IMG/VR virus record: IMGVR_UViG_2657245091_000012 | DNA length: 22,164 bases | Reading direction: 5' to 3' (one strand) | Source: a virus | Taxonomy: Duplodnaviria; Heunggongvirae; Uroviricota; Caudoviricetes | Part shown: positions 11,927 to 22,164 of the stretch, piece after piece | Position numbering within the stretch: position 1 is the first letter of the stretch | Layout of the letters: every line of letters begins with the position of its first letter | Made by a program: the position numbers and the translations under genes | The notes under the pieces: generated by a model | The model's database searches: none | Told to the model about the DNA's origin: nothing | Seen by the model: only the letters and a program-made list of their open reading frames with translations

Positions 11927-12478
11927 ATGACACCAACCGAATTATTAGAAAGCGTTAAAGCACGATTTAATCCACTGCTTGTGCGTGAAGAAGAAACGCT
12001 GAAAGCCTTCCTGATCAAAGCTCTGACCACGTATCAGGACAGGGCAGGGGTAGTGAAAACGTTAAAACTTGAAAAAGCTGGTGGTACTGCAATCCCATTA
12101 CCAGAAGATTATCTCTCTCTGGTTCATGTTACCGACAACAATGGCCTGTTGGTCTATTCGGATGAATTATCCGGATTTATTGAATTAGAGCTAACAGGTT
12201 CAGAGCGCTGGCCTTTTCGAATGCTGTATCTGGTTAATCTACGCGACAGAAAGCTGGATGAATGGCAAGTGCCTCCTGCAATCATTGGAATGCTGGAGGA
12301 ATATCTAGAGGCGCTTATCAATGTAAGAAATGTCGCTCGGCAGCGTAGAGCGTCCATCGACGGGAAATTTGACTACTCCGATCTGCCCGATGAAGCCACG
12401 CTATATGCCCGCGTGCAGGAGATTGAGGAAAAAATGTCCTCAAACCGGGCCATTATTCCGGGGGCTACCATTTTTTAA
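11927..12478 (+). CDS. hypothetical protein (183 aa)
   Basis: ORF in the tail block; no motif recognised. Confidence 0.4.
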   Translation: MTPTELLESVKARFNPLLVREEETLKAFLIKALTTYQDRAGVVKTLKLEKAGGTAIPLPEDYLSLVHVTDNNGLLVYSDELSGFIELELTGSERWPFRMLYLVNLRDRKLDEWQVPPAIIGMLEEYLEALINVRNVARQRRASIDGKFDYSDLPDEATLYARVQEIEEKMSSNRAIIPGATIF

Positions 12479-12493: not shown

Positions 12494-13201
12494 GTGAGTA
12501 TTTTCAGCAGCGTTGGTAGAACGTTGACCACCGCATTGTCATTTAACACGAAATCATTCACCAGCAACCTCATTAGCGACATTCTTGATAAAGCCATATC
12601 AGGCGGCGGGGTAAGCGGGAATTACAGTAGCGATATTGCCTACGGGAAAAATATTGTTGCTGCCGCTATGCGTATCCGTTACGCCCAGGGGTGGCAGTGG
12701 ACCGTTGAAGTGGATGGTCTGAACGGCTTCGATATGTTCGTGAAGGATATCACCTACAGCAGTGGGAACATCGAGACAGAAAGCAAGGTGATCGGCAGCG
12801 TAGAATTCAGCAAGCCAACCTATGTTAGCGCCGGACCGGTCACTATGACCGTGAGGGATACCGAAGATGGCAAGATCATGGACTGGTTCAAAGAGCGTCG
12901 TTCTCGTGTAACAAATCCTGATGGAACAATAAACCTTCCTCCTGAATATCTGATGAAAATCCGTGTCTACCGGGTGACTCAGGACGGCGGAAAAGAACTG
13001 GAAGAAGAAATGCGCGTATTTCCTACGCAACTTGGGGAAATCACACGCTCACGTGATCAGGTGTCAGAGTTCTTGTCATACCCAATCACTTTCCAGAAAT
13101 ACACATCCGCAGGCTCAGGTGTTTCTGCTTTGGTCAACGGTGCCGCTGGCATGGCTACAAGTGCGTTAAAGGGGGCTGTGAGTGGAGTGATCAAATTCTG
13201 A
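12494..13201 (+). CDS. hypothetical protein (235 aa), GTG start with GGAGG SD
   Basis: ORF in the tail block; no motif recognised. Confidence 0.4.
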   Translation: MSIFSSVGRTLTTALSFNTKSFTSNLISDILDKAISGGGVSGNYSSDIAYGKNIVAAAMRIRYAQGWQWTVEVDGLNGFDMFVKDITYSSGNIETESKVIGSVEFSKPTYVSAGPVTMTVRDTEDGKIMDWFKERRSRVTNPDGTINLPPEYLMKIRVYRVTQDGGKELEEEMRVFPTQLGEITRSRDQVSEFLSYPITFQKYTSAGSGVSALVNGAAGMATSALKGAVSGVIKF

Positions 13202-13290: not shown

Positions 13291-13585
13291 TTGAGGGCAT
13301 TTTTTACATCATCAATTCATCTGTAATGAAGGCATTCTTTACACATTTCAATAATATCAATCAGTTAACACAGTGAATGATAATAAAAAAGCGCAATAAG
13401 AATGCACGATACGCACGATATTGGTTGAGGGCGATTTTTACATAGTCCTTACATATCAATACGTTATATAAAAACACAACTTGCTAATAACAATATACAT
13501 GCAATTAAGATGTAAAAATTGCCCTCAATTGCCGATCGTTAAGGGCAAATTCTACACCTTGAGAGGGGTGTAAAAATTGCCCTTA
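13291..13585. repeat. iteron array downstream of repA (incC-like copy-control repeats), mixed orientation
   Basis: Copies of the GAGGGCA(A/T)TTTTTACA(T/C)C family at 13291-13310 (+), 13425-13444 (+), 13509-13528 (-), 13540-13558 (+, degenerate) and 13566-13585 (-); the last two form a near-palindrome overlapping the repA stop. Confidence 0.6.
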
Positions 13586-14338
13586 AGACTGCTGATAGGT
13601 AAATTTTATCCTGGTAACTTTGCCGCCTTCCGTCACCTCTGAGAAGACTATTTTCATTTTTGTATTTTTTTCAATCTCTGCTACAGCCTTCGTTAAAAAA
13701 CTTCTCTTAAATTCGGCATACCGCTGATAGCTTTTTGGTAACCCATAACGCTCCCGCATCCATTCGACGCCAAGTATGGCAAAGCCGCTTCCATCATCCT
13801 TCCTGTACTGGCATAAGGACTCATAAAGCCGCATAGAATAAGGATTTGTAAGGCGAGATACTTCGGTAAAATTCAGCCTTGTGAATCTCTTATCAAGCAG
13901 AGTAAAAAACGGCATGAGATATGGATTAAGATGAATAATGTAAGTCCCGCGCCGTGGTGAATAGGCATCCTTAATCATCCAAGGATAAGACTCATAACTG
14001 TCTTCTGATTCGGTCGATTCATCAGGGTTATATATCGTAACTTTCTTCTCGCTAAGCCCTGAAATGGCCTTACGAATATCCTTGCTGGCTTCAGCAGAGG
14101 GCAAATTATACATCTCTGCATATTCGTTGACCGTCAACTCACAGGCACCTGAACCAAGAACGCCATCCTTAGAAGCATAGCGAAGTCTTCCCACCACAAT
14201 AAACAACAGTCGCTTTTGGTCGCGAGTCAGGTGATAAGCAGCCTCCGTGATCTCATTGGCTTGTGCCAAACTACGACTAATAGGTGTCGCTGACTCAATC
14301 AGGCTGACGGCTTTTGCTGTTAATTCCGCTCTGTTCAT
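13583..14338 (-). CDS. repA: iteron-binding replication initiator, Rep_3 family, F RepE-like
   Basis: Strong similarity to F RepE as recalled (LTEAAYHLTRDQKR, SAEASKDIR, NPYSMRLYESLCQYRKDDGSGF, PKSYQRY). The track start (14371) is a TTG inside an iteron; the ATG at 14336-14338 (MNRAELTAK...) gives an N-terminus of RepE-like length. Confidence 0.9.
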   Translation of the reverse strand: MNRAELTAKAVSLIESATPISRSLAQANEITEAAYHLTRDQKRLLFIVVGRLRYASKDGVLGSGACELTVNEYAEMYNLPSAEASKDIRKAISGLSEKKVTIYNPDESTESEDSYESYPWMIKDAYSPRRGTYIIHLNPYLMPFFTLLDKRFTRLNFTEVSRLTNPYSMRLYESLCQYRKDDGSGFAILGVEWMRERYGLPKSYQRYAEFKRSFLTKAVAEIEKNTKMKIVFSEVTEGGKVTRIKFTYQQS

Positions 14339-14361
14339 AACCCTGTGTGATCCTTCAAATG

Positions 14362-14622
14362 GTGAGGGCAATTTTTACATCACTTTGAGGGCAATTACTA
14401 CACCTTTTGAGGGCAAATCTTACACCTTTTGAGGGCAAATCTTACACCGATCGTATTTAATTGAGGGCAAATCTTACACCAGCCTCCTCTACAGCCCGCG
14501 CCACTACTGGCTCCAGCGACGCCTAAAAAGGATCTAAAAAGGATTAAAAATGGAAAAAGGTTTATAAAAATACTCTGTGGATATGTGAGTAGCGTCACTT
14601 AAGGTGTAAAAATCACCCTCAA
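14362..14622. repeat. replication origin region: five direct 22-bp-spaced iterons (TTGAGGGCAAATCTTACACC), an AT-rich tract, a DnaA-box-like site and one inverted iteron
   Basis: Iterons at 14362-14381, 14384-14404, 14405-14426, 14427-14448 and 14461-14480; AT-rich tract 14521-14572 with repeated aaaaagga; tgtggatat at 14576-14584 is 8/9 to the DnaA box TGTGGATAA; inverted iteron variant at 14603-14622. Iteron sequence resembles F oriS iterons as recalled. Confidence 0.7.
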
Positions 14623-14726
14623 TAATCGCTTCTCGACCGGCAAAGATCTTCATTCAATCCCCATCGCAAATCACACACTCCCTATCCTCTGGAAAATGAA
14701 CAGATACCTGCTTTTCGGAGGAATAA

Positions 14727-15548
14727 TTGAACATTCCAAAATTCCCATTGCCTTCCCGTCCTGAGACAGAAATTCAGTTTCACGCCCCTACCGTGAAGGA
14801 TGCGCTGAAATATTCTGACCTGAACCCGGCAGAAGATGAGGCAACTACTACAGAGTACCTTAACTCTATGCAGGATGGTGAAATTAACGACAGTGCTAAC
14901 TGGACAGTTCAGGATCGCAGAACTGCTCTTTGGTGGATATTTGTTAATTCGCGCCCTGATGCAGTAATGACCTACTCCTATGAGTGCAGTCACTGCGGTA
15001 ATACGCATCATGCAGATATTAACCTGAGCGACCTGGCCCAAACAGTAGAAATACTCACTGTGCCTCCTTACGTGAAAACCAACGTACCAGTAAATGGAGT
15101 ACCAACTGACTGGATACTTAAACCATTAACCGGGAAAGGCGCGGAACTCCTTGAACGAATGCGAGCGTCACTTCCTGATATGAAAAGCCCCGAATACAGT
15201 GCTGGCGTGGCACGGATGCGAATTGCTGAACTCGCTTTATGCACGGCGCTTGAAGACGATCCGGAGGACTTCACGCAGGCCGCTAACCGACGCTTTGACA
15301 TCATTGAAAGCATGGCGCTTGAAACCGAATTTACTCCGCTTGTGGCTCGCATACAGCTTATGCAAAAAGACCTACGCCACGGCCTGAAAATGTCTATTGA
15401 GAGAGGCACAAGCCGACTGATCCTGCCTCCGCAACATTGCAAAAACGCTAAGGAGGGTGCAGATGTGACAACCACACTGTACGTCCCCTTTCTCAATAGA
15501 GAGTTTATCCCATCAATTAGATCTGAATGGATGGCTAACCATTATTAA
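14727..15548 (+). CDS. hypothetical protein (273 aa), TTG start with GGAGG SD; contains a Cys/His cluster (CSHCGNTHH)
   Basis: ORF immediately upstream of the tape-measure-like gene; possible tail assembly factor by position only. Confidence 0.35.
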   Translation: MNIPKFPLPSRPETEIQFHAPTVKDALKYSDLNPAEDEATTTEYLNSMQDGEINDSANWTVQDRRTALWWIFVNSRPDAVMTYSYECSHCGNTHHADINLSDLAQTVEILTVPPYVKTNVPVNGVPTDWILKPLTGKGAELLERMRASLPDMKSPEYSAGVARMRIAELALCTALEDDPEDFTQAANRRFDIIESMALETEFTPLVARIQLMQKDLRHGLKMSIERGTSRLILPPQHCKNAKEGADVTTTLYVPFLNREFIPSIRSEWMANHY

Positions 15549-15562
15549 CAACCTGACTCTAT

Positions 15563-18500
15563 ATGGATATCAGCCCGTTAGCGACGTTGAACAATTACCG
15601 CAATGGCGAGCACTCCATATGTCAAAAGCCCTGGAAGAAAAATACAAAGCTCAAGCTGGGAAACGTTGATCGCGCTGGTAAAAGAGAGGTTATTTTGAAA
15701 GAGAATAAAGACCGTATCGCAATAATTGACGCTATTCAGGAGGCGAGCACAAACGAACTTAAAGCTCTTGCTGAGGTAAAAGACGCCATTCTTTCTGGGG
15801 CAAGCACCATAACTCAACAGGACGAAAGGCAAGGCAGAGTTAGCAACAGACTATCACGCAGGCGTAAAGACTACGAGCAAAGTACATCTGATAGCGTTAG
15901 AGATGTCCAAACTAACCCATATAAAAAACGTCTCCCTGCTAAAAAGGAAAGGGCACCGATAAACCAAACCGTGGACCGCTCTATCGTTGCAACGAACACA
16001 CCAGAAAGTGTTCGCTCCGTGCAATCACGTCAGACCATCCGAAAACCGGACGGTTTTATACCGGTAGCTGCTAATTCAGCCCCTCTTGAACCACAATCTC
16101 CCCAAAGTCTAAAAGGCCCGCTGCGGGATAGTAGTGGACGTTTTGTATCCCAAAAAAGCAATGAGGATGTAGCCAGAAAAAAAGAATTGCAGAACGCACG
16201 TAAAGCCGACGCAAAATTACAAGCTGGCTTTCTCAGAAAGCTAGGTTCCATTATGGGGGTAGATGGCAATCAGTCTTCCAGTGAAGAGTCTTTAACAAAT
16301 GCAGCTGGTGTCGGTGCTGGTGGGCCGTTATGGATGGCGGCTCGTGGCATGTACGACATAACTAAAGAGATCACAGGTAAAGCAGAATCTCTTAAAGAAT
16401 GGGTAGAAAAGGGGAAAAAAGAAACATCAACCTCGAAAGCGATATCACCAGTAATTACTTATCCGGCGGCGGTGAATTCTCAAAAAGCAACATCTGCAAA
16501 AGCGTTCAATAACGCTGTTGAGACAAAATCCGCACAAGCAGTAGAAGAGCAAACCAAAATCCTTCAGACCAATGACAACAAAATAATTGATGGTCTGGAA
16601 AATGTTTCTGACGAGATACTTAAGCTTCGGAAATCAGTGTATTCTGGAAATAAGTTCGGCTTAAGTGATCTCTGGAAAAATCGAGCAAGCAGAAGAAATA
16701 AAATCAATATTGGTGATCAGACGGGAAAAAATAAACGGAACAAATCGAAAAGGAAAGGCCGCAATCTTGGAAAAAAAGCACTCTCCGCTGGCGAAAAAGT
16801 TGCTGCCGGTAGCGCTGCGGCTGGCACTGGTGTCGGAGCAGCAAAAGTAGTTAAAAATAAGATCAGCAAACCCAAAGATGTAAGCACTATCAGCGATACA
16901 TCAAAGGGGATTGCAAAGGAAACAAAAAATACTGCTAAGGCCGTGAAGTCAGCTGGTGTTGTGGCTGAAGATGCCACCATTAAAACCGGCGAAGCCATTG
17001 CAAAGAAAAAAACTGAATCTGTAGCCCTCAAAAGTGCTGCAAAAATAGGTGTTAAATCAGCAGCATCCACAGCGGCAAGAGCGGTCCCTATCATCGGTTC
17101 GCTGGCAATGGCTGGATATGACGCCATAGATGGTTACACAGATACAGAGGCGCAAAAGGCAGCCTTTGGTTTAAGTGACGATAATGCTGTATCCGAACAG
17201 CAAAAAACGGCTTACGCAACAGCTAATGTGCTCGATATGGGGGGCTTGGTGTCGGGCGCAACGAACTTGATAGGGAAAGGAATTTCTGCGCTAGGATTTG
17301 AAAGAGCAGGTGAAAAACTTCAGAATTTTGATACCGGAGATATTGCTCGTGGTGTTAACGGCGCGGTAGATATCACCAAATCTGTTTTTGGTAGCCTTAA
17401 GGATACATTTTTATCCACTGACGAAAACACGAAACAAGTAAAAAAAGCTGTTGAAGACGGCACCAAAAAAACTGTCGATGCGATTCATTCTCTAGGTGAA
17501 CAATTACAAGGTGGGCGTAATGGCGAGGATGGAGTTGGTGAGCACGGGTATACTTCTCCAACTGAATTTAGTGCACCTGCCAACAACACCATTGCAGCGG
17601 ATCTGAATATTGGCGGCAGCAACGCTAAAAACCGCAATTACCGAAATAATAATCTCGGCAATCTTGTTTTTGCCAACCAGGAAGGGGCGACGCTGGAATC
17701 GCCAAATGCAAAAGGTGAACAACGTTTTGCTCGATTTAACACGCCTGAAGAAGGGATCAGGGCACTGGCAAACCAGGTTTCCAGCTATTACAACGGCACC
17801 AGTGCCGCAGCGGGATATCAGAAGTTACAGACGGTATCCAGCATCATTTCAAAATGGGCACCGCCAAATGAGAACAATACTAACCAATATATTGATAACG
17901 TCAGTAAATATCTTGGTGTATCGCCTAATGAAAAAATAGATGTCAGCAACCCAGAGGTTATGACGCAATTAGTTCGTGCAATTGCGACGAAAGAAGGCGG
18001 AAATCCGGCAGTTAATAATGAGTTCATTAAGAATGCACTTGGAGCATTTAACACAAACACTGGTCGATGGGAGGGACAATTCTCTGACGAAACATTGGCG
18101 CGGATTAATAAAATTCAGAAAGAAAATGGTGGTCAGCTAATTGCCCGCGATTCGCAATATAGTGTTGGTCGCAAGGTAAAATATGCTAATGGAAAATCTC
18201 CAGCTCATCCAGTTTTGAATGCCGTTCCGACAGCAACACAACAGCCAATTGAGGTTGCACAACATGCCCAGGCAGTCAAAAAGCCACAAAAAACAGGCAA
18301 TCAATCGCAACCGATTAATCCAGAGAATGTTGATGTTAATACTGGCTCGCCATCAAGTCTGCTTGAGAGATTAATCGCTATAAATGAAAGCGGGGTAGGT
18401 AATTTATTTGGAGGTGCGGCTACCAGCCTTGCTGGTACAAGCCTTGGCCTGATTAAGGATTTTGCGTCGGCGACTTCGTTTGGTTCTATATCTTCGCTTT

Positions 18501-19345
18501 CCGAAAAAGCGAAAGGAATGGATCAGGCTCTTACTGAAAAGATATCCAGCTTAACCGGTAAATCTTTTGGATTTCAAAAAGCAAGCCAGGTAACTGATAT
18601 AAGAGACGCTTTACAAAAAAGACCAAAAGCTGAACTCGATATGCCTTCAGTGGATCTTCTCTCCGGTGTTTCTTCGGCAAGTGAGAGTGAAAAAATCTCT
18701 GTAAACTCAAGGGGGATTCCAGTTTATGACAATGGATACAAGGTAATTGATGGTGAAGATAAGGGGGTGCTTGGCTCTTTGTTTGACTCGTCATTAACAG
18801 GTCTGAAACGTATTAGCTCTGCTGTGTTACCTGCAATTGGCGATAACGTTTCACAACTTATTGGTGGGGTAGATGGCACAGGCATTGTTAATGATTTGAT
18901 TTATCAGGCTACTGGGCAGAATTCAACAATTGCCAGGGCTATTAGCCCGCTTACCAGGAGCGCCGGTAGTTGGCTGAATAATGGTATTCAACAAACCGCA
19001 GATAGCATTAGAGGTATATCAAACGAAGCCAATAATGCCATATTTGGCTCTGCGTCAGCCGTGCAAGAACCTTTTCTTGCTTTGCCACCACAGCTTCCTA
19101 CTGTAACAGATCTCGCACGAAGCGGAATAAGACAACCATTAACTACTGACACTATAAATAACGATCCTGCTATGTTGAAGGCGCTGGATAACATCTGCTC
19201 TATCCTGAACGATCTTCTGAATGTGAACAAGAACAATACAAAAGGCGATCCGGATAAGGTTGTCAAAACATCGCAGCCGCAACCGCGACCACGTGCTAGC
19301 ACAACTATTAATGACCCGTCGCTGGATGCTCTGCTTGAGGATTAA
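15563..19345 (+). CDS. large tail protein, putative tape measure protein (1260 aa)
   Basis: Very long ORF with a Lys-rich coiled-coil-like N-terminal third, Ala/Gly-rich hydrophobic segments (AGSAAAGTGVGAAKVV, AVPIIGSLAMAG), and position between tube-like and baseplate-like genes; contains a conserved-looking internal segment (NNNLGNLVFANQEGATLESPNAKGEQRFARFNTPEEGIRALANQV) of unknown function. Confidence 0.5.
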   Translation: MDISPLATLNNYRNGEHSICQKPWKKNTKLKLGNVDRAGKREVILKENKDRIAIIDAIQEASTNELKALAEVKDAILSGASTITQQDERQGRVSNRLSRRRKDYEQSTSDSVRDVQTNPYKKRLPAKKERAPINQTVDRSIVATNTPESVRSVQSRQTIRKPDGFIPVAANSAPLEPQSPQSLKGPLRDSSGRFVSQKSNEDVARKKELQNARKADAKLQAGFLRKLGSIMGVDGNQSSSEESLTNAAGVGAGGPLWMAARGMYDITKEITGKAESLKEWVEKGKKETSTSKAISPVITYPAAVNSQKATSAKAFNNAVETKSAQAVEEQTKILQTNDNKIIDGLENVSDEILKLRKSVYSGNKFGLSDLWKNRASRRNKINIGDQTGKNKRNKSKRKGRNLGKKALSAGEKVAAGSAAAGTGVGAAKVVKNKISKPKDVSTISDTSKGIAKETKNTAKAVKSAGVVAEDATIKTGEAIAKKKTESVALKSAAKIGVKSAASTAARAVPIIGSLAMAGYDAIDGYTDTEAQKAAFGLSDDNAVSEQQKTAYATANVLDMGGLVSGATNLIGKGISALGFERAGEKLQNFDTGDIARGVNGAVDITKSVFGSLKDTFLSTDENTKQVKKAVEDGTKKTVDAIHSLGEQLQGGRNGEDGVGEHGYTSPTEFSAPANNTIAADLNIGGSNAKNRNYRNNNLGNLVFANQEGATLESPNAKGEQRFARFNTPEEGIRALANQVSSYYNGTSAAAGYQKLQTVSSIISKWAPPNENNTNQYIDNVSKYLGVSPNEKIDVSNPEVMTQLVRAIATKEGGNPAVNNEFIKNALGAFNTNTGRWEGQFSDETLARINKIQKENGGQLIARDSQYSVGRKVKYANGKSPAHPVLNAVPTATQQPIEVAQHAQAVKKPQKTGNQSQPINPENVDVNTGSPSSLLERLIAINESGVGNLFGGAATSLAGTSLGLIKDFASATSFGSISSLSEKAKGMDQALTEKISSLTGKSFGFQKASQVTDIRDALQKRPKAELDMPSVDLLSGVSSASESEKISVNSRGIPVYDNGYKVIDGEDKGVLGSLFDSSLTGLKRISSAVLPAIGDNVSQLIGGVDGTGIVNDLIYQATGQNSTIARAISPLTRSAGSWLNNGIQQTADSIRGISNEANNAIFGSASAVQEPFLALPPQLPTVTDLARSGIRQPLTTDTINNDPAMLKALDNICSILNDLLNVNKNNTKGDPDKVVKTSQPQPRPRASTTINDPSLDALLED

Positions 19346-19350
19346 TACAG

Positions 19351-19725
19351 ATGCTTTATGAAATAGACGCAAGACTTCAAACGAATGAGAGCGGTGTCAT
19401 TATTGCAGAAGGAAGTACCGCAGCATGGATGGCCCGACTTGACGAGTGGCTACGAACCCCTGAAGGGAGTGTTTATGGTTTACCCTCTTGGGGGAATCCA
19501 ATGGAAGAATTTAAGCATGAACCATTCGGCTCTGAAACTTCGCACATAGTTGAAGTGGCTATTGAAGGGAGAATGATGAAAAAACTACGACAAGACTTGC
19601 CAGGTTTGGATGTGCAGGGGATTCGTTGCACATCAATTTCTGAAGATTCTTTATTAATTAGTTTTTATGCGAAAGGTGGGAGCATGGATATTGTTATGCA
19701 GAAATCAAGTGGGGTGGGCGCGTGA
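19351..19725 (+). CDS. hypothetical small tail/baseplate protein (124 aa)
   Basis: Directly downstream of the tape-measure-like gene; its stop overlaps the next gene's start (GTGA). Confidence 0.4.
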   Translation: MLYEIDARLQTNESGVIIAEGSTAAWMARLDEWLRTPEGSVYGLPSWGNPMEEFKHEPFGSETSHIVEVAIEGRMMKKLRQDLPGLDVQGIRCTSISEDSLLISFYAKGGSMDIVMQKSSGVGA

Positions 19726-21152
19726 CGATTACAGAATTACTGGACAAATTTAATGCCAAGTTAAATGAAAACACATGGTGGTCACGATTTGTAAATAGTC
19801 AGTTTGTGCAGATGCACGCTATATTCGGATCACAGCTTATTTATATTGCCCGTACATTTGCAAGCCGCGGCCTCACTGAGGGACTTATTTCAACGGCTAC
19901 GCGCCGCTCAAGTATTTTAGCGGTTGCTGAAGACCGTAGCTACGTAGGGAGATTTGTTAGTGCTTCATACGGAACAACGTCTATAACCAATAAAACTGAT
20001 CGGGATATTACGTTACCAGCCGGGGCTGAATTGCTTGCCAATGACCAAACACCTTTGGCAATTATTAACAGTGTTGTAATTCCTGCTGGAGGAACTGTTT
20101 CTGGCGTAGAAACTAAACAGCATGAAGCTGTTAGCGTTACATTTGATATTGAGAAGGAAACTTTATTTCTGACATTGTTGCTTTCCAGAGAGTTAACAAA
20201 AGAAGTCTCTAGCCTGGATGTTTATGTTATTACAGATGGCGTAGAAGAAAAATGGACATATAACCCATTATTTAGAATGTCCAGAGACAAGAGTAAGCAC
20301 TATTCATTGGCATATAAACCTACAGAACAACTAGGAGTCAAGTTTGGTGATGGTTCTATGGGTATGATGCCTCCAGCAGGCTGTCAGGTTCGAATCGATG
20401 TTATGGCTAGCCTTGGCGACTATACTTTGGCTGAAGGACAAAAGTTAGAACCGGCTGGAAATATCGCTCAATATGTGGAGTCACTAGAGTTTAAAACTGA
20501 TTCGATCATTACCGGTGGTAGTGGTATGGAAACTACAGAAGAAACTCGAAATCGTGCTCAGTATTATGTTGCATACGATGAACAAGTGGTATGGGGCGGT
20601 GATTATCGCCAATTCATTCAGAATGTTGTTCATGGAACTTCATGGTTGAACGTTTGGGGCGAAGCGTTACAAGAGAAAATAACTGGGTTTGACGTTCGAA
20701 ACATCAACAAAATCTTCTTTTGCGGACATAAACCGGGTGTAAGCCAGGCTCAGCTAAAATCAGAAATACTGAAAGCTCTAGAGAATGTTCCAAATGAGTT
20801 GAACAAGCGGTTCGAGTATGTAGATACAAATGAACAGCCATTTACTATAAATTTTACAGGTATTGCACGTAAAAATGTTCTGATAGACGACGCTCAAAAT
20901 GCTATTAAAGCAGCGTTGGAAGATAATTTTGGCCGTGATTCGTCATCATTCAGTTTATTACTACAGAGTGATGATGATTCCCAGCAATGTTATGCACAGG
21001 TAAAAGTTAAAGATATTTGGCGAGTAATAGAGTCTCTGGATATGTTTCTGTCTTACGACATAACAATACAAAATATGAAAGATGCTGTTTACTTTAATGA
21101 CTTCATTTATCTTGACGTGAAATCTTCAACGTTCAGCATTTCTTACCCGTAA
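19722..21152 (+). CDS. hypothetical tail/baseplate protein (476 aa), GTG start overlapping the upstream stop
   Basis: Translational coupling (GTGA at 19722-19725); position after the tape-measure-like gene suggests a baseplate or tail-completion role; no motif recognised. Confidence 0.4.
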   Translation: MTITELLDKFNAKLNENTWWSRFVNSQFVQMHAIFGSQLIYIARTFASRGLTEGLISTATRRSSILAVAEDRSYVGRFVSASYGTTSITNKTDRDITLPAGAELLANDQTPLAIINSVVIPAGGTVSGVETKQHEAVSVTFDIEKETLFLTLLLSRELTKEVSSLDVYVITDGVEEKWTYNPLFRMSRDKSKHYSLAYKPTEQLGVKFGDGSMGMMPPAGCQVRIDVMASLGDYTLAEGQKLEPAGNIAQYVESLEFKTDSIITGGSGMETTEETRNRAQYYVAYDEQVVWGGDYRQFIQNVVHGTSWLNVWGEALQEKITGFDVRNINKIFFCGHKPGVSQAQLKSEILKALENVPNELNKRFEYVDTNEQPFTINFTGIARKNVLIDDAQNAIKAALEDNFGRDSSSFSLLLQSDDDSQQCYAQVKVKDIWRVIESLDMFLSYDITIQNMKDAVYFNDFIYLDVKSSTFSISYP

Positions 21153-21162
21153 TGAGGTTGGC

Positions 21163-21827
21163 ATGAAAGATAATTGGCTTAAGGAACGATTAACTAAAGT
21201 AAAACAGGATTCACATCTCTGGAGTGCCTTTATCGACGCTTTACAGGATGTCTGGAATGAGGCAGTAGAACCAATATTAACAAGAATAAGTAACAGAAAA
21301 TCCTTCTTCACTATGGACAGTGAGGATATGGATGCCCGCATTGCTGAATACGGGCGTTTTTTCGTCATCACTGAAAAAGATAAGGCTCGTAGGCCAATGC
21401 TACTGGCACAACGTTTAGATGAAGTGCACTTTAAAGGCACTATCTTGCCTATTGAGCAGACATTCTGGCGTGAATTCGGTTGTATTCCTGTTAGCTGGGA
21501 ACCGCTGTATGCACCTGTAAATATAGAAAAACACCCCTATGGTTCATATTTTGCGACCGAAATAGAAATACCTACGGCACAGGCTCAATTCGGTGAGTTC
21601 TTCCTGACATCAAGGGGGCTGGTCGTTGTTGATCAGAACAAGCTATATCGCTCATATGGAGAGCAGGATAAAGAAGCCGCTGTGCAGAAATTGTTATCTG
21701 ACTTCGAAACAGTAATAGCCCCTTTGTTGCCATTGCATATTGTTTTTGATGGCGTCTCGTTTCGGCTTAGTGCTGTATTCCCTGAAGTGGCAGAAATACT
21801 AAATTGCTTGTCTACGGATGTTTCGGT
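21163..21827 (+). pseudogene. structural-block gene truncated at its 3' end by an IS3-family insertion
   Basis: The ORF (ATG 21163, SD gaggttgg) reads without a stop into the IS terminal repeat; its last 16 codons ([16 protein letters not shown]) are encoded by IS sequence. Confidence 0.5.
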
Positions 21828-22164
21828 TGAACCGCCCCGGAAATCCTGGAGACTAAACTCCCTGAGAAAGAGGTAAACAGGATGACTAAAAATACTCGTT
21901 TTTCCCCCGAAGTCCGTCAGCGGGCGATTCGTATGGTTCTGGAAAGTCAGGATGAATATGACTCACAGTGGGCGGCAATTTGTTCCATTGCCCCAAAGAT
22001 TGGCTGTACGCCGGAGACTCTGCGTGTCTGGGTTCGCCAGCATGAGCGGGATACCGGGAGTGGTGATGGTGGACTCACCACCGCTGAACGTCAGCGTCTG
22101 AAAGAGCTGGAACGTGAAAATCGTGAACTGCGCCGCAGTAACGATATCCTTCGCCAGGCTTCCG
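21828..22164 (+). mobile_element. IS3-family insertion sequence, left end (IS629/IS1203-like by recollection); continues past the right edge
   Basis: Terminal repeat beginning TGAACCGCCCCGG at 21828, followed by SD and the orfA start; OrfA N-terminus is typical of IS3-family IS629-type elements. Confidence 0.8.
21882..22164 (+). CDS. IS3-family transposase OrfA (helix-turn-helix and leucine-zipper part), partial at the right edge
   Basis: Translation [94 protein letters not shown] is recognisable as IS3-family OrfA. Confidence 0.85.

What the first reader, a model, noticed from the sequence alone, without database searches (positions are those of the whole stretch)
15563..19345. 1260-aa tape-measure-like protein with an embedded conserved-looking domain
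Beyond the usual coiled-coil and hydrophobic segments of tape measure proteins, the centre holds a compact segment (RNYRNNNLGNLVFANQEGATLESPNAKGEQRFARFNTPEEGIRALANQVSSYYNGTSAAAGYQ...) that looks like a discrete domain. Tape measure and injection proteins often carry cell-wall-active or host-interacting domains, but I cannot assign this one.
Basis: partly seen in the sequence, partly recalled or inferred. Interest (0 to 1): 0.45.

Follow-up and report, generated by a model that had tools for sequence, protein, structure and literature searches.

The report
Tape measure protein with cell-wall-cutting domain
This is the already-annotated tail tape measure/injection protein (Sit) of a D6-like, P1-related phage-plasmid, and its central segment is a real, known type of peptidoglycan-cutting enzyme domain (the phage Enc34 endolysin type) that most likely opens the cell wall during infection, so the finding is correct but ordinary.

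Summary
The 1260-codon ORF (15563-19345, +) is real. It is 97.5% identical in DNA to the phage D6 gene annotated "tail injection transglycosylase, similar to P1 sit", and at least 94 E. coli/Salmonella/Shigella plasmids carry it. It lies in P1 gene order (pmgB-sit-pmgA-bplA), the position of P1's tape measure protein.

P1 Sit carries an unrelated SLT (GH23) domain instead, so the databases' "transglycosylase" label is inherited and probably wrong in its chemistry. The Enc34-family relative M4Lys behaves as an N-acetylglucosaminidase. The same SLT-for-Enc34 exchange separates T7 gp16 from Kayfunavirus gp16.

Two side results. The first 44 codons are probably not part of the protein; the likely start is TTG 15695. 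The stretch between pmgB and sit is read in the +1 frame, which looks like a recoded extension of the PmgB chaperone and is also conserved in P1.

Verdict: already known, low interest.

The parts
15563..19345 (+). ORF as reported (1260 codons plus stop). D6-type Sit, the tail tape measure/injection protein.
   Evidence: Full-length PHROG 7182 'tail injection transglycosylase'. 97.5% nt identity to D6 H7U15_gp087.
15695..19345 (+). Probable true coding sequence: TTG start, 1216 aa, with GAGG 5 nt upstream.
   Evidence: Homologue N-termini and the PHROG profile start at residue ~45. PGAP starts the gene at the equivalent codon in pEF-4, E. marmotae, Citrobacter and Leclercia plasmids. Synonymous changes appear in this frame only downstream of ~15700.
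17030..17452 (+). Conserved Gly/Ala-rich, mildly hydrophobic core (residues 490-630). It is the only segment clearly shared with P1 Sit.
   Evidence: BLASTP 43% identity, E=2e-29, to P1 Sit residues 382-523. PHROGs 2533, 24683 and 21630 match it. 43-54% identity across Sit-like proteins. No PDB sequence match.
17618..18067 (+). Enc34-type (PHA02564) peptidoglycan hydrolase domain, residues ~686-835.
17642..17662 (+). R694-N-N696-N697-L-G699-N700 loop motif (family consensus RNNNPGN).
   Evidence: Invariant R, N, N, G, N in alignment A1. 140-149 of 150 representatives keep them. Position 698 is Pro in the family at large but F/L/I in all 27 Sit-like proteins.
17855..17857 (+). W765, equivalent to Enc34 Trp79 (substrate positioning).
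   Evidence: Aligned. Aromatic in 146 of 150 representatives. Role taken from PMC8943055.
17888..17890 (+). Y776, equivalent to Enc34 Tyr95.
   Evidence: Aligned. Tyr in 143 of 150 representatives and in 27 of 27 Sit-like proteins.
17993..17995 (+). E811, equivalent to the proposed catalytic Glu131 of Enc34.
   Evidence: Aligned. Glu in 150 of 150 representatives. Role taken from PMC8943055.
18068..18172 (+). C-terminal extension of the domain (residues 836-870), conserved only in Sit-like proteins. Predicted as a small hairpin plus helix.
   Evidence: Alignment to query positions ~150-190 is seen only in the 1100-1450 aa Sit-like hits. The model shows strands E149-151 and E156-158 and helix H163-175 in its own numbering, where position 1 is ORF residue 680.
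19073..19342 (+). Conserved C-terminal ~90 residues (1171-1260), weakly similar to the P1 Sit C-terminus. Presumed anchor to the baseplate hub (inference).
   Evidence: 34-45% identity across Sit-like proteins. BLASTP E=0.003 to P1 Sit residues 1039-1134.
14727..15548 (+). pmgB-like gene directly upstream, the putative tape measure chaperone.
   Evidence: PHROG 1854 E=4e-135. D6 annotation. Chaperone role proposed for P1 PmgB from its position (PMC9024508).
15520..15669 (+). Conserved coding stretch in the +1 frame relative to pmgB, with no start codon of its own before 15619. Putative recoded (+1 or -2) extension of PmgB. It overlaps the first 35 codons of the annotated ORF.
   Evidence: Synonymous/non-synonymous counts are 16/5 and 13/4 in this frame, against 0/16-19 in the other two frames. 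The peptide is conserved in six elements including P1. The 15499-15548 stretch is almost invariant: no change in pEF-4 and one in the E. marmotae plasmid.
19351..21152 (+). pmgA-like and bplA-like baseplate wedge genes directly downstream, in the same order as in P1.
   Evidence: PHROGs 1896 and 1369. D6 and P1 annotations.

Best explanation
The ORF encodes the D6-type version of P1 Sit, the tail tape measure/injection protein of a P1-related contractile-tailed phage that is maintained as a plasmid.

The protein has five parts:
- a long, charged, probably helical N-terminal half;
- a conserved Gly/Ala-rich core shared with P1 Sit;
- a ~150-residue globular enzyme domain of the Enc34-endolysin type (PHA02564);
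- a variable Ser/Gly-rich stretch;
- a conserved C-terminal end.

Proposed mechanism. The protein sits inside the tail tube. When the sheath contracts it is expelled through the tube into the periplasm. There the enzyme domain, using Glu811 with Tyr776 and Trp765, locally cleaves the glycan strands of peptidoglycan so that the tube tip and DNA can reach the inner membrane. The bond cut is most likely the GlcNAc-MurNAc bond (N-acetylglucosaminidase, as reported for the family member M4Lys) rather than a lytic transglycosylase reaction.

What is shown: gene identity, synteny, domain homology, fold and intact catalytic residues. What is inferred from relatives (P1 Sit, T7 gp16, TM4 and T5 tape measure proteins, Enc34, M4Lys): location in the tail, ejection, enzymatic activity and bond specificity.
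For: Identity and context:
- 97.5% nt identity to D6 'tail injection transglycosylase, similar to P1 sit'.
- Gene order pmgC-tub-pmgB-sit-pmgA-bplA, as in P1.
- 43% identity to P1 Sit over 141 residues, plus a weak C-terminal match.
- P1 Sit is a virion protein by LC-MS/MS and is assigned as the tape measure protein (PMC9024508; PMC12810830).
- The upstream pmgB has a conserved out-of-frame extension like those of tail chaperone genes.

Domain:
- phmmer E=6.5e-16 to Enc34 catalytic domain 7Q47, with Trp79, Tyr95 and Glu131 aligned to W765, Y776 and E811.
- Glu is invariant in 150 of 150 relatives.
- The domain is the most conserved part of the protein.
- Enc34 and M4Lys domains are muralytic in vitro (PMC8943055; PMC7143992).

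The same domain occurs in other virion ejection proteins:
- at the N-terminus of Kayfunavirus gp16, in place of T7's SLT domain;
- in internal proteins of epsilon15-like phages;
- in an Aeromonas myophage tape measure protein;
- in about 129 of the best 150 relatives, which are proteins of 300 to more than 1000 aa.
Against: - No experiment exists on this protein or on D6 Sit.
- Sit was not resolved in the P1 cryo-EM maps (PMC12810830), so even for P1 the location inside the tube is inferred.
- The AlphaFold model of the domain is only moderately confident (mean pLDDT 66; the first 42 positions of the modelled segment, ORF residues 680-721, which contain the RNNNxGN loop, are below 50).
- The family's Pro in the RNNNPGN loop is Leu here and F/L/I in all Sit-like proteins. 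The effect on activity is unknown.
- The bond specificity of the family rests on one HPLC-MS study, which also suggested endopeptidase activity (PMC7143992). Catalytic roles of the three residues are by structural analogy, not mutagenesis (PMC8943055).
- The helical, tape-measure-like nature of the N-terminal half rests on a low-confidence model.
Confidence: 0.8

Rival explanations
1. The domain is a lytic transglycosylase like the SLT domain of P1 Sit, as the database names 'transglycosylase' and 'tail injection transglycosylase' say. On this reading only the chemistry differs from the best explanation.
For: - GenBank, PGAP and PHROG names.
- The Enc34 fold is distantly related to the GH23 lytic transglycosylases gp144 and MltC (PMC8943055).
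- There is a short local resemblance around the catalytic Glu: VRAIATKEGGNPA here against LYAIAATESGGNPNA in P1 Sit.
Against: - No SLT match in Pfam at E<=10, while P1 Sit scores E=3.5e-26 in the same search.
- Profile comparison with the P1 SLT domain gives probability 0.1%.
- BLAST finds no similarity between the two proteins in this region.
- The closest structural relative of Enc34 is a GH73 N-acetylglucosaminidase, and M4Lys released GlcNAc from muropeptides (PMC8943055, PMC7143992).
- The name was evidently carried over from P1 sit by gene position.
Confidence: 0.12
2. The domain is catalytically inactive. It serves as a peptidoglycan-binding or structural plug module of the tape measure protein.
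For: - The Pro-to-Leu/Phe change in the RNNNPGN loop is specific to Sit-like proteins.
- The loop region is modelled with low confidence.
- No activity data exist for any tape-measure-embedded copy.
Against: - The catalytic Glu is kept in 27 of 27 Sit-like proteins and Tyr in 27 of 27. The third position is always aromatic.
- The domain is the most strongly conserved part of the protein, as expected for an enzyme under selection.
Confidence: 0.05
3. The protein is not the tail length ruler. It is a separate ejection protein, analogous to T7 gp16, carried in the head or baseplate, and another protein sets tail length.
For: - The same domain heads podovirus ejection proteins.
- P1 gp6 was historically proposed as the ruler (PMC9024508).
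- Sit is unresolved in cryo-EM (PMC12810830).
- Only part of the protein is predicted helical, and with low confidence.
Against: - The gene sits between a chaperone-like gene with a recoded extension and the baseplate wedge genes, the canonical tape measure position.
- P1 gp6 is a baseplate hub and too short to be the ruler (PMC9024508).
- No other long protein gene lies in this part of the tail module within the window.
Confidence: 0.05
4. The segment is only a low-complexity linker with no fold.
For: Pfam-A and NCBIfam give no hit.
Against: - Strong matches to PHROGs and to the PDB.
- A unique fold match.
- 6989 related cluster representatives.
- Invariant motif positions.
Confidence: 0

Closest known systems
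Escherichia phage D6 orf40 (H7U15_gp087, 'tail injection transglycosylase') and its copies on D6-like plasmids
   Same: It is the same gene. DNA identity is 97.5% to D6 and up to 99.9% to E. coli plasmids, with the same length and the same neighbours.
   Different: Nothing of substance differs. The public annotation uses the ATG at the position of 15563 and the name 'transglycosylase'. Both are questioned here.
Phage P1 Sit (structural injection transglycosylase; tape measure protein)
   Same: - Same gene position, pmgB-sit-pmgA-bplA.
- Same overall plan: long N-terminal part, conserved core, muralytic domain, C-terminal end.
- 43% identity in the core and weak C-terminal similarity.
- The upstream pmgB has the same +1-frame extension.
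   Different: P1 Sit carries a Pfam SLT (GH23) domain at residues 748-867. This protein carries an Enc34-type domain at 686-835, with no detectable similarity to the SLT domain. The spacing between core and enzyme domain also differs, about 225 aa in P1 against about 55 aa here.
Phage Enc34 endolysin ORF39 catalytic domain (PDB 7Q47; family PHA02564) and Salmonella phage BSPM4 M4Lys
   Same: A homologous domain with about 30% identity, the same all-helical fold, and the same Glu/Tyr/Trp and RNNNxGN motifs.
   Different: Those are about 230-aa lysis proteins with a C-terminal membrane domain that act from within at the end of infection. Here the domain is embedded in the middle of a ~1200-aa virion protein that presumably acts from outside at the start. 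The Pro of the loop motif is replaced by Leu.
Kayfunavirus gp16-type ejection protein (PDB 9vvp chain L 'Gp29'; phage LS2 gp41) compared with T7 gp16
   Same: An Enc34-type domain fused to a large virion protein that is ejected into the cell envelope. T7 gp16 has an SLT domain where Kayfunavirus gp16 has the Enc34-type domain, and the rest is homologous. This is the same module exchange as between P1 Sit and D6-type Sit.
   Different: That is a podovirus internal core protein with the domain at the extreme N-terminus. It is unrelated to Sit outside the domain.
Tape measure proteins with embedded muralytic modules (mycobacteriophage TM4 Tmp, T5 Pb2, Aeromonas phage 4_D05 tape measure protein)
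   Same: The same concept: a length ruler that also delivers a cell-wall hydrolase (PMC1796659; PMC9024508, references 55 and 56). The 4_D05 tape measure protein carries the very same Enc34-type domain near its C-terminus.
   Different: TM4 and T5 use different enzyme families. 4_D05 is a much shorter protein (544 aa) with no other similarity to this one.

Membership tests
Enc34-type / PHA02564 ('virion protein V') peptidoglycan hydrolase domain | Significant sequence similarity to characterised members (Enc34 ORF39, chi gp38, MP22 V) | tested here: met
   phmmer E=6.5e-16 to 7q47_A. E=1e-20 to 1e-27 to chi gp38, CAjan endolysin and MP22 V in a small database. PHROG 873 E=4.9e-39.
Enc34-type / PHA02564 ('virion protein V') peptidoglycan hydrolase domain | All-helical fold of 7Q47 (alpha-lobe-like, no beta lobe) | tested here: met
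Enc34-type / PHA02564 ('virion protein V') peptidoglycan hydrolase domain | Proposed catalytic Glu131 with Tyr95 and Trp79 | tested here: met
   E811, Y776 and W765 align to them. They are conserved in 150, 143 and 146 (aromatic) of 150 relatives.
Enc34-type / PHA02564 ('virion protein V') peptidoglycan hydrolase domain | N-terminal RxNNPGN loop motif | tested here: met
   R694, N696, N697, G699 and N700 are present. Pro is replaced by Leu, and by F/L/I in all 27 Sit-like proteins.
Enc34-type / PHA02564 ('virion protein V') peptidoglycan hydrolase domain | Muralytic activity and bond specificity | not testable with these tools
   Activity is shown only for Enc34 and M4Lys (PMC8943055, PMC7143992).
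SLT / GH23 lytic transglycosylase (the family implied by the database name and present in P1 Sit) | Match to Pfam SLT (PF01464) or a related SLT model | tested here: not met
   No Pfam hit at E<=1 for the whole protein or E<=10 for the domain. The positive control, P1 Sit, scores E=3.5e-26.
SLT / GH23 lytic transglycosylase (the family implied by the database name and present in P1 Sit) | Profile-level similarity to the SLT domain of P1 Sit | tested here: not met
   hhalign probability 0.1%, E=0.52, with only a 20-column local match around the Glu.
Tail tape measure protein (P1 Sit orthologue) | Gene position between the tail tube/chaperone genes and the baseplate genes | tested here: met
   The order tub-like, pmgB-like, sit, pmgA-like, bplA-like matches P1.
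Tail tape measure protein (P1 Sit orthologue) | Sequence homology to P1 Sit | tested here: inconclusive
   Only residues 490-630 (43% identity, E=2e-29) and a weak C-terminal match (E=0.003) align. The rest is not alignable.
Tail tape measure protein (P1 Sit orthologue) | Upstream chaperone gene with a programmed frameshift extension | tested here: met
   The +1-frame stretch after pmgB is under purifying selection (16/5 and 13/4 synonymous/non-synonymous), lacks a start codon and is conserved in P1. The shift itself is inferred, not demonstrated.
Tail tape measure protein (P1 Sit orthologue) | Long, mostly alpha-helical region | tested here: inconclusive
   A single-sequence AlphaFold model of residues 45-690 shows about 60% long helices, but mean pLDDT is 44.7.
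Tail tape measure protein (P1 Sit orthologue) | Protein length determines tail length, and the protein is present in virions | not testable with these tools
   P1 Sit was detected in virions by LC-MS/MS (PMC9024508). No data exist for D6-type phages.

The most novel reading that the evidence does not exclude
The cell-wall-cutting module of phage ejection proteins is an exchangeable cassette. Non-orthologous SLT (GH23) and Enc34-type modules occupy the same slot in two unrelated protein classes: the myovirus tape measure Sit (P1 against D6-type) and podovirus gp16 (T7 against Kayfunavirus). On this reading the D6-type phages penetrate with an N-acetylglucosaminidase rather than a lytic transglycosylase. 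The exchange might then be adaptive, for example against host peptidoglycan modifications or periplasmic inhibitors, rather than neutral. It would also mean that the 'transglycosylase' label on more than 100 plasmid and phage records is chemically wrong.
Probability: 0.3. Interest if true: 0.4.

Novelty: already known. Interest (0 to 1): 0.2.

Why it matters
The practical value is in annotation.

- A very widespread phage enzyme domain (6989 clusters at 50% identity) has no Pfam or NCBIfam model. Domain searches therefore return nothing, and names are copied from P1 by gene position.
- The D6-type Sit should be described as a tape measure protein with an Enc34-type (probably N-acetylglucosaminidase) domain, starting at the TTG 132 nt downstream of the annotated ATG.
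- The parallel SLT-for-Enc34 exchange in Sit and in gp16 is a clean example of modular evolution of virion-borne lysins.
- D6-like phage-plasmids are common in clinical E. coli and Salmonella, so correct structural annotation is useful.

None of this changes the accepted picture of how such phages penetrate the cell wall.

Tried and rejected
- **Pfam-A and NCBIfam.** Scans of the whole protein and of four sub-segments gave no meaningful hit. The only lines were sub-threshold noise (DHQ_synthase E=0.013, Ecl1 E=1.8).
- **Word-indexed protein search.** Searches with the domain alone and with the conserved core returned almost only fragments of the same gene. The search became useful only when seeded with an alignment of phage homologues.
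- **Conserved core, residues 465-651.** No similarity to any PDB sequence, so its function remains unassigned.
- **N-terminal half.** The single-sequence AlphaFold model was too low in confidence to support more than 'mostly helical'.
- **Papers.** The D6 genome paper (PMC5800970) and the P1 genome paper (tried as PMC523184, an id recalled from memory) are not held in the library. No paper citing PDB 9VVP was found.
- **Frameshift site.** I tried to identify a slippery sequence for the pmgB shift. No canonical heptamer or stop-codon context is shared by the six sequences in the 15513-15525 interval, so the mechanism (+1 or -2) is left open.
- **Linker reading.** The idea that the segment is a low-complexity linker was rejected.
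- **SLT reading.** The idea that the domain is the SLT domain of P1 Sit was rejected.


Full report
**1. The observation.** The + strand carries an uninterrupted ORF from ATG 15563 to the stop ending at 19345, 1260 codons. The ORF is a real gene. It matches PHROG 7182 ("tail injection transglycosylase") at 2420 bits over profile positions 1-1228. It is 97.5% identical in DNA over its whole length to gene H7U15_gp087 of Escherichia phage D6. It is 80-99.9% identical to genes on at least 94 non-mobilizable ~90-kb plasmids of E. coli, Salmonella and Shigella. The window is therefore part of a D6-like, P1-related phage-plasmid.

**2. Genomic context.** The D6 record annotates the gene as "similar to P1 gene sit". 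The neighbours in the window reproduce the P1 order. They are pmgC-like (11927-12478), tub-like (12494-13201), pmgB-like (14727-15548), this gene, pmgA-like (19351-19725), bplA-like (19722-21152) and gene 16-like (21163-21876). In P1, Sit is a virion protein by LC-MS/MS. It is assigned as the tape measure protein because of its size, its helical N-terminal two-thirds and its position. The older candidate, gp6, is a baseplate hub (PMC9024508). The P1 cryo-EM study also treats Sit as the tape measure protein, although it could not resolve it (PMC12810830).

**3. What the central segment is.** Pfam-A and NCBIfam give nothing for the whole protein or for sub-segments. Other evidence assigns the domain:
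- PHROG 873 ("endolysin") matches residues 687-826 at E=4.9e-39.
- A search of PDB sequences finds the catalytic domain of the phage Enc34 endolysin (7Q47, E=6.5e-16, residues 688-817). It also finds the N-terminus of a 1295-aa "Gp29" (9VVP chain L, E=3.9e-14).
- Enc34 ORF39 belongs to the provisional family PHA02564. It lyses outer-membrane-permeabilised E. coli, Pseudomonas and Hafnia. [quoted passage not shown]
- In the alignment these three residues align to E811, Y776 and W765 of the ORF.
- An AlphaFold2 model of residues 680-870, built on 75 homologues, has mean pLDDT 66, a core at 70-95, and the N-terminal loop below 50.

**4. Breadth and conservation of the domain.** An exhaustive HMMER search of 1.84 billion cluster representatives finds 6989 relatives at E<=1e-3 and 1279 at E<=1e-10. 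Among the best 150:
- Glu811 is invariant (150/150).
- N771 and G731 are invariant.
- Tyr776 is kept in 143.
- Position 765 is aromatic in 146.
- The R-x-N-N-x-G-N loop motif is kept in 136-149.

The top 27 hits are 1100-1450-aa proteins with the domain at the same relative position, that is, Sit-like proteins. In their alignment, residues 691-840 are 56-72% identical to the query, against 10-30% for most of the protein. The same pattern holds in pairwise comparisons. This is what an enzyme domain under selection looks like, not a linker. One subfamily peculiarity is that the family's Pro in RNNNPGN is Leu here and F/L/I in all 27 Sit-like proteins.

**5. It is not the domain that P1 Sit has.**
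- P1 Sit scores E=3.5e-26 against Pfam SLT (PF01464) at residues 748-867, in agreement with PMC9024508.
- The two proteins align only in a Gly/Ala-rich core (residues 490-630 here against 382-523 in P1, 43% identity, E=2e-29) and weakly at the C-terminus (E=0.003).
- A profile comparison of the Enc34-type alignment with the P1 SLT domain gives probability 0.1%.
- The only aligned stretch there is around the catalytic Glu: VRAIATKEGGNPA against LYAIAATESGGNPNA. This is compatible with the very distant, circularly permuted relationship to GH23/GH73 proposed from the Enc34 structure, but it is not significant.

Both proteins therefore have the same overall layout and gene position but carry non-orthologous muralytic modules. 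The name "transglycosylase" on D6 and on the plasmid copies appears to have been inherited from P1 sit. For the Enc34 family, the only bond-specificity data are RP-HPLC/MS of muropeptides for M4Lys. These point to N-acetylglucosaminidase activity, plus a possible endopeptidase activity (PMC7143992). The Enc34 authors reach the same glucosaminidase conclusion from the GH73 resemblance.

**6. The same module in other virion proteins.** The domain occurs as:
- a small stand-alone endolysin (CAjan, 145 aa; Pseudomonas phage MP22 protein V, 138 aa);
- an endolysin with a C-terminal membrane domain (chi gp38, Enc34);
- part of internal proteins of epsilon15-like phages (Tyrion gp16, SPN9TCW_016);
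- a module near the end of the 544-aa tape measure protein of Aeromonas myophage 4_D05;
- the N-terminus of Kayfunavirus gp16.

Kayfunavirus LS2 gp16 matches PDB 9VVP chain L end to end (2832 bits over all 1295 residues). It is homologous to T7 gp16 ("peptidoglycan transglycosylase gp16", 7EYB) only from residue 128 onward. T7's N-terminal SLT domain is therefore replaced by the Enc34-type domain. This is the same exchange as between P1 Sit and D6-type Sit, in an unrelated class of ejection protein. Of the best 150 relatives, 96 are 300-1000 aa and 33 are over 1000 aa, with the domain typically in the C-terminal half. Fusion to large virion proteins is thus the common context. The family is also reported in PM2-like tailless phages and in a T6SS effector.

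**7. Most likely mechanism.** By analogy with P1 Sit, T7 gp16, TM4 Tmp and T5 Pb2 (PMC9024508; PMC1796659), the protein lies in the tail tube lumen, anchored at the baseplate hub. It is expelled on sheath contraction. The enzyme domain then cleaves glycan strands locally so that the tube and DNA can cross the murein layer. Domain identity, fold and residues are shown here. Location, ejection, activity and the bond cleaved are inferred. P1 gp5 lacks the lysozyme domain of T4 gp5, and the P1 authors assign that role to Sit. The same logic applies here.

**8. The start of the gene.**
- Homologues begin a few residues before the motif DRIAIIDAIQ, which is residue ~50 of the ORF. The PHROG profile starts at residue 45.
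- In E. fergusonii and E. marmotae plasmids, indels of 3+1 nt break the upstream frame. The marmotae sequence has ACG in place of the ATG.
- PGAP starts the gene there, and in Citrobacter and Leclercia relatives, at the codon equivalent to TTG 15695, which follows GAGG by 5 nt.
- Between 15549 and 15666, substitutions in the ORF's frame are 0 synonymous to 19 and 16 non-synonymous.

The protein therefore most likely starts at 15695 and has 1216 aa.

**9. A side finding: the stretch between pmgB and sit is coding in another frame.** In 15549-15666 the +1 frame relative to pmgB shows 16/5 and 13/4 synonymous/non-synonymous changes. The other two frames show none synonymous. That frame is open from 15388 to the TGA at 15667-15669 and has no ATG, GTG or TTG before 15619. 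Its peptide is ...LNGWLTIINNLTLYGYQPVSDVEQLPQWRALHMSKALEEKYKAQAGKR. It is conserved in the E. fergusonii, E. marmotae, Citrobacter and Leclercia plasmids. It is also recognisable in P1 as LKSYQTLVSNLVLYGGIPIQDAERL...KLEEKLKPKR, again in the +1 frame past the end of pmgB. The 50 nt before the pmgB stop (15499-15548) are almost invariant between 82-85%-identical sequences: no change in pEF-4 and one in the E. marmotae plasmid.

This is the signature of the programmed frameshift found in tail assembly chaperone genes upstream of tape measure genes, which is -1 in lambda G/GT, -2 in Mu and +1 in some phages (PMC5009743). Comparison of the frames places the shift between the FIP codons (15504-15512) and the Leu codon at 15523. 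I could not identify a shared slippery sequence. The P1 structural paper proposes PmgB as the chaperone only from gene position and does not mention a frameshift. This supports the tape measure assignment and explains the false N-terminal extension.

**10. Verdict.** The gene is already in public records with essentially that interpretation, and the domain type has been characterised structurally and biochemically. What this analysis adds is a more precise assignment (Enc34-type, not SLT, and probably a glucosaminidase), a corrected start codon, and the likely recoded PmgB extension. Novelty: already known. Interest: low (0.2).

Noticed in passing
window 15499-15669 (also L002:2200-2340 in P1; L010, L011, L013, L014): After the pmgB-like stop (15546-15548) the +1 frame is under purifying selection: 16/5 and 13/4 synonymous/non-synonymous changes, against none synonymous in the other frames. 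It has no start codon of its own before 15619. It encodes a ~50-aa peptide conserved in five D6-like or related plasmids and in P1. The 50 nt before the stop are almost invariant (one substitution, in the E. marmotae plasmid). This looks like a programmed +1 or -2 frameshift that makes a long form of PmgB, like the G/GT tail chaperone pair. I did not find it described for P1 or D6 in the accessible literature.
   Followed up: partly
window 15563-15694: The annotated ATG start of the sit-like gene, used in the D6 record and in many PGAP plasmid records, adds 44 codons that are not conserved, are out of frame in divergent relatives and show no synonymous bias. TTG 15695 with an upstream GAGG is the likely start.
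   Followed up: yes
window 13291-14623: A repA-like replication initiator gene (13583-14371, minus strand) sits inside the tail gene cluster between the tub-like and pmgB-like genes. It is flanked by ~19-21-nt iterons (GAGGGCAAnTnTTACAyC). Five lie at 22-bp spacing at 14364-14483, upstream of the gene. Further copies in both orientations lie at 13291-13587 and 14596-14623. This is a P1-type plasmid replicon and is annotated in D6.
   Followed up: partly
L004:4411-8298 (Escherichia virus LS2) and PDB 9vvp_L / 7eyb_I: Kayfunavirus gp16 is homologous to T7 gp16 from residue ~128 onward, but its N-terminal domain is Enc34-type where T7 has SLT. This is the same module exchange as between P1 Sit and the D6-type Sit.
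   Followed up: partly
window 15695-17120 compared with 17135-19345 (protein P0131, the E. marmotae-type Sit): The gene is mosaic. One relative is only 32-70% identical in residues 45-520 but 92-100% identical from residue 525 to the end. This implies recombination inside the gene near the start of the conserved core.
   Followed up: partly
window 17618-18067: This very widespread phage domain (6989 clusters at 50% identity, E<=1e-3) has no model in the Pfam-A or NCBIfam copies searched. All 120 related proteins listed, of 761 found, carry no precomputed Pfam domain and are named only 'structural protein' or 'structural protein P5'.
   Followed up: yes
window 17654-17656 (residue 698): The Pro of the family's RNNNPGN loop is Leu here and F/L/I in all 27 Sit-like tape measure proteins, while 114 of 150 relatives overall have Pro. 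This is a subfamily signature of unknown consequence.
   Followed up: no
window 17975-18013 compared with P1 Sit (L002, SLT motif): The sequences around the catalytic Glu of the two otherwise unalignable domains resemble each other locally: VRAIATKEGGNPA against LYAIAATESGGNPNA. The match is not significant (hhalign probability 0.1%). It is in line with the distant, permuted GH23/GH73 relationship proposed from the Enc34 structure.
   Followed up: no
window 14727-15548: The N-terminal ~100 residues of the PmgB-like protein give a weak match to PHROG 150 'baseplate hub' (E=3.7e-4). That is odd for a presumed tape measure chaperone.
   Followed up: no
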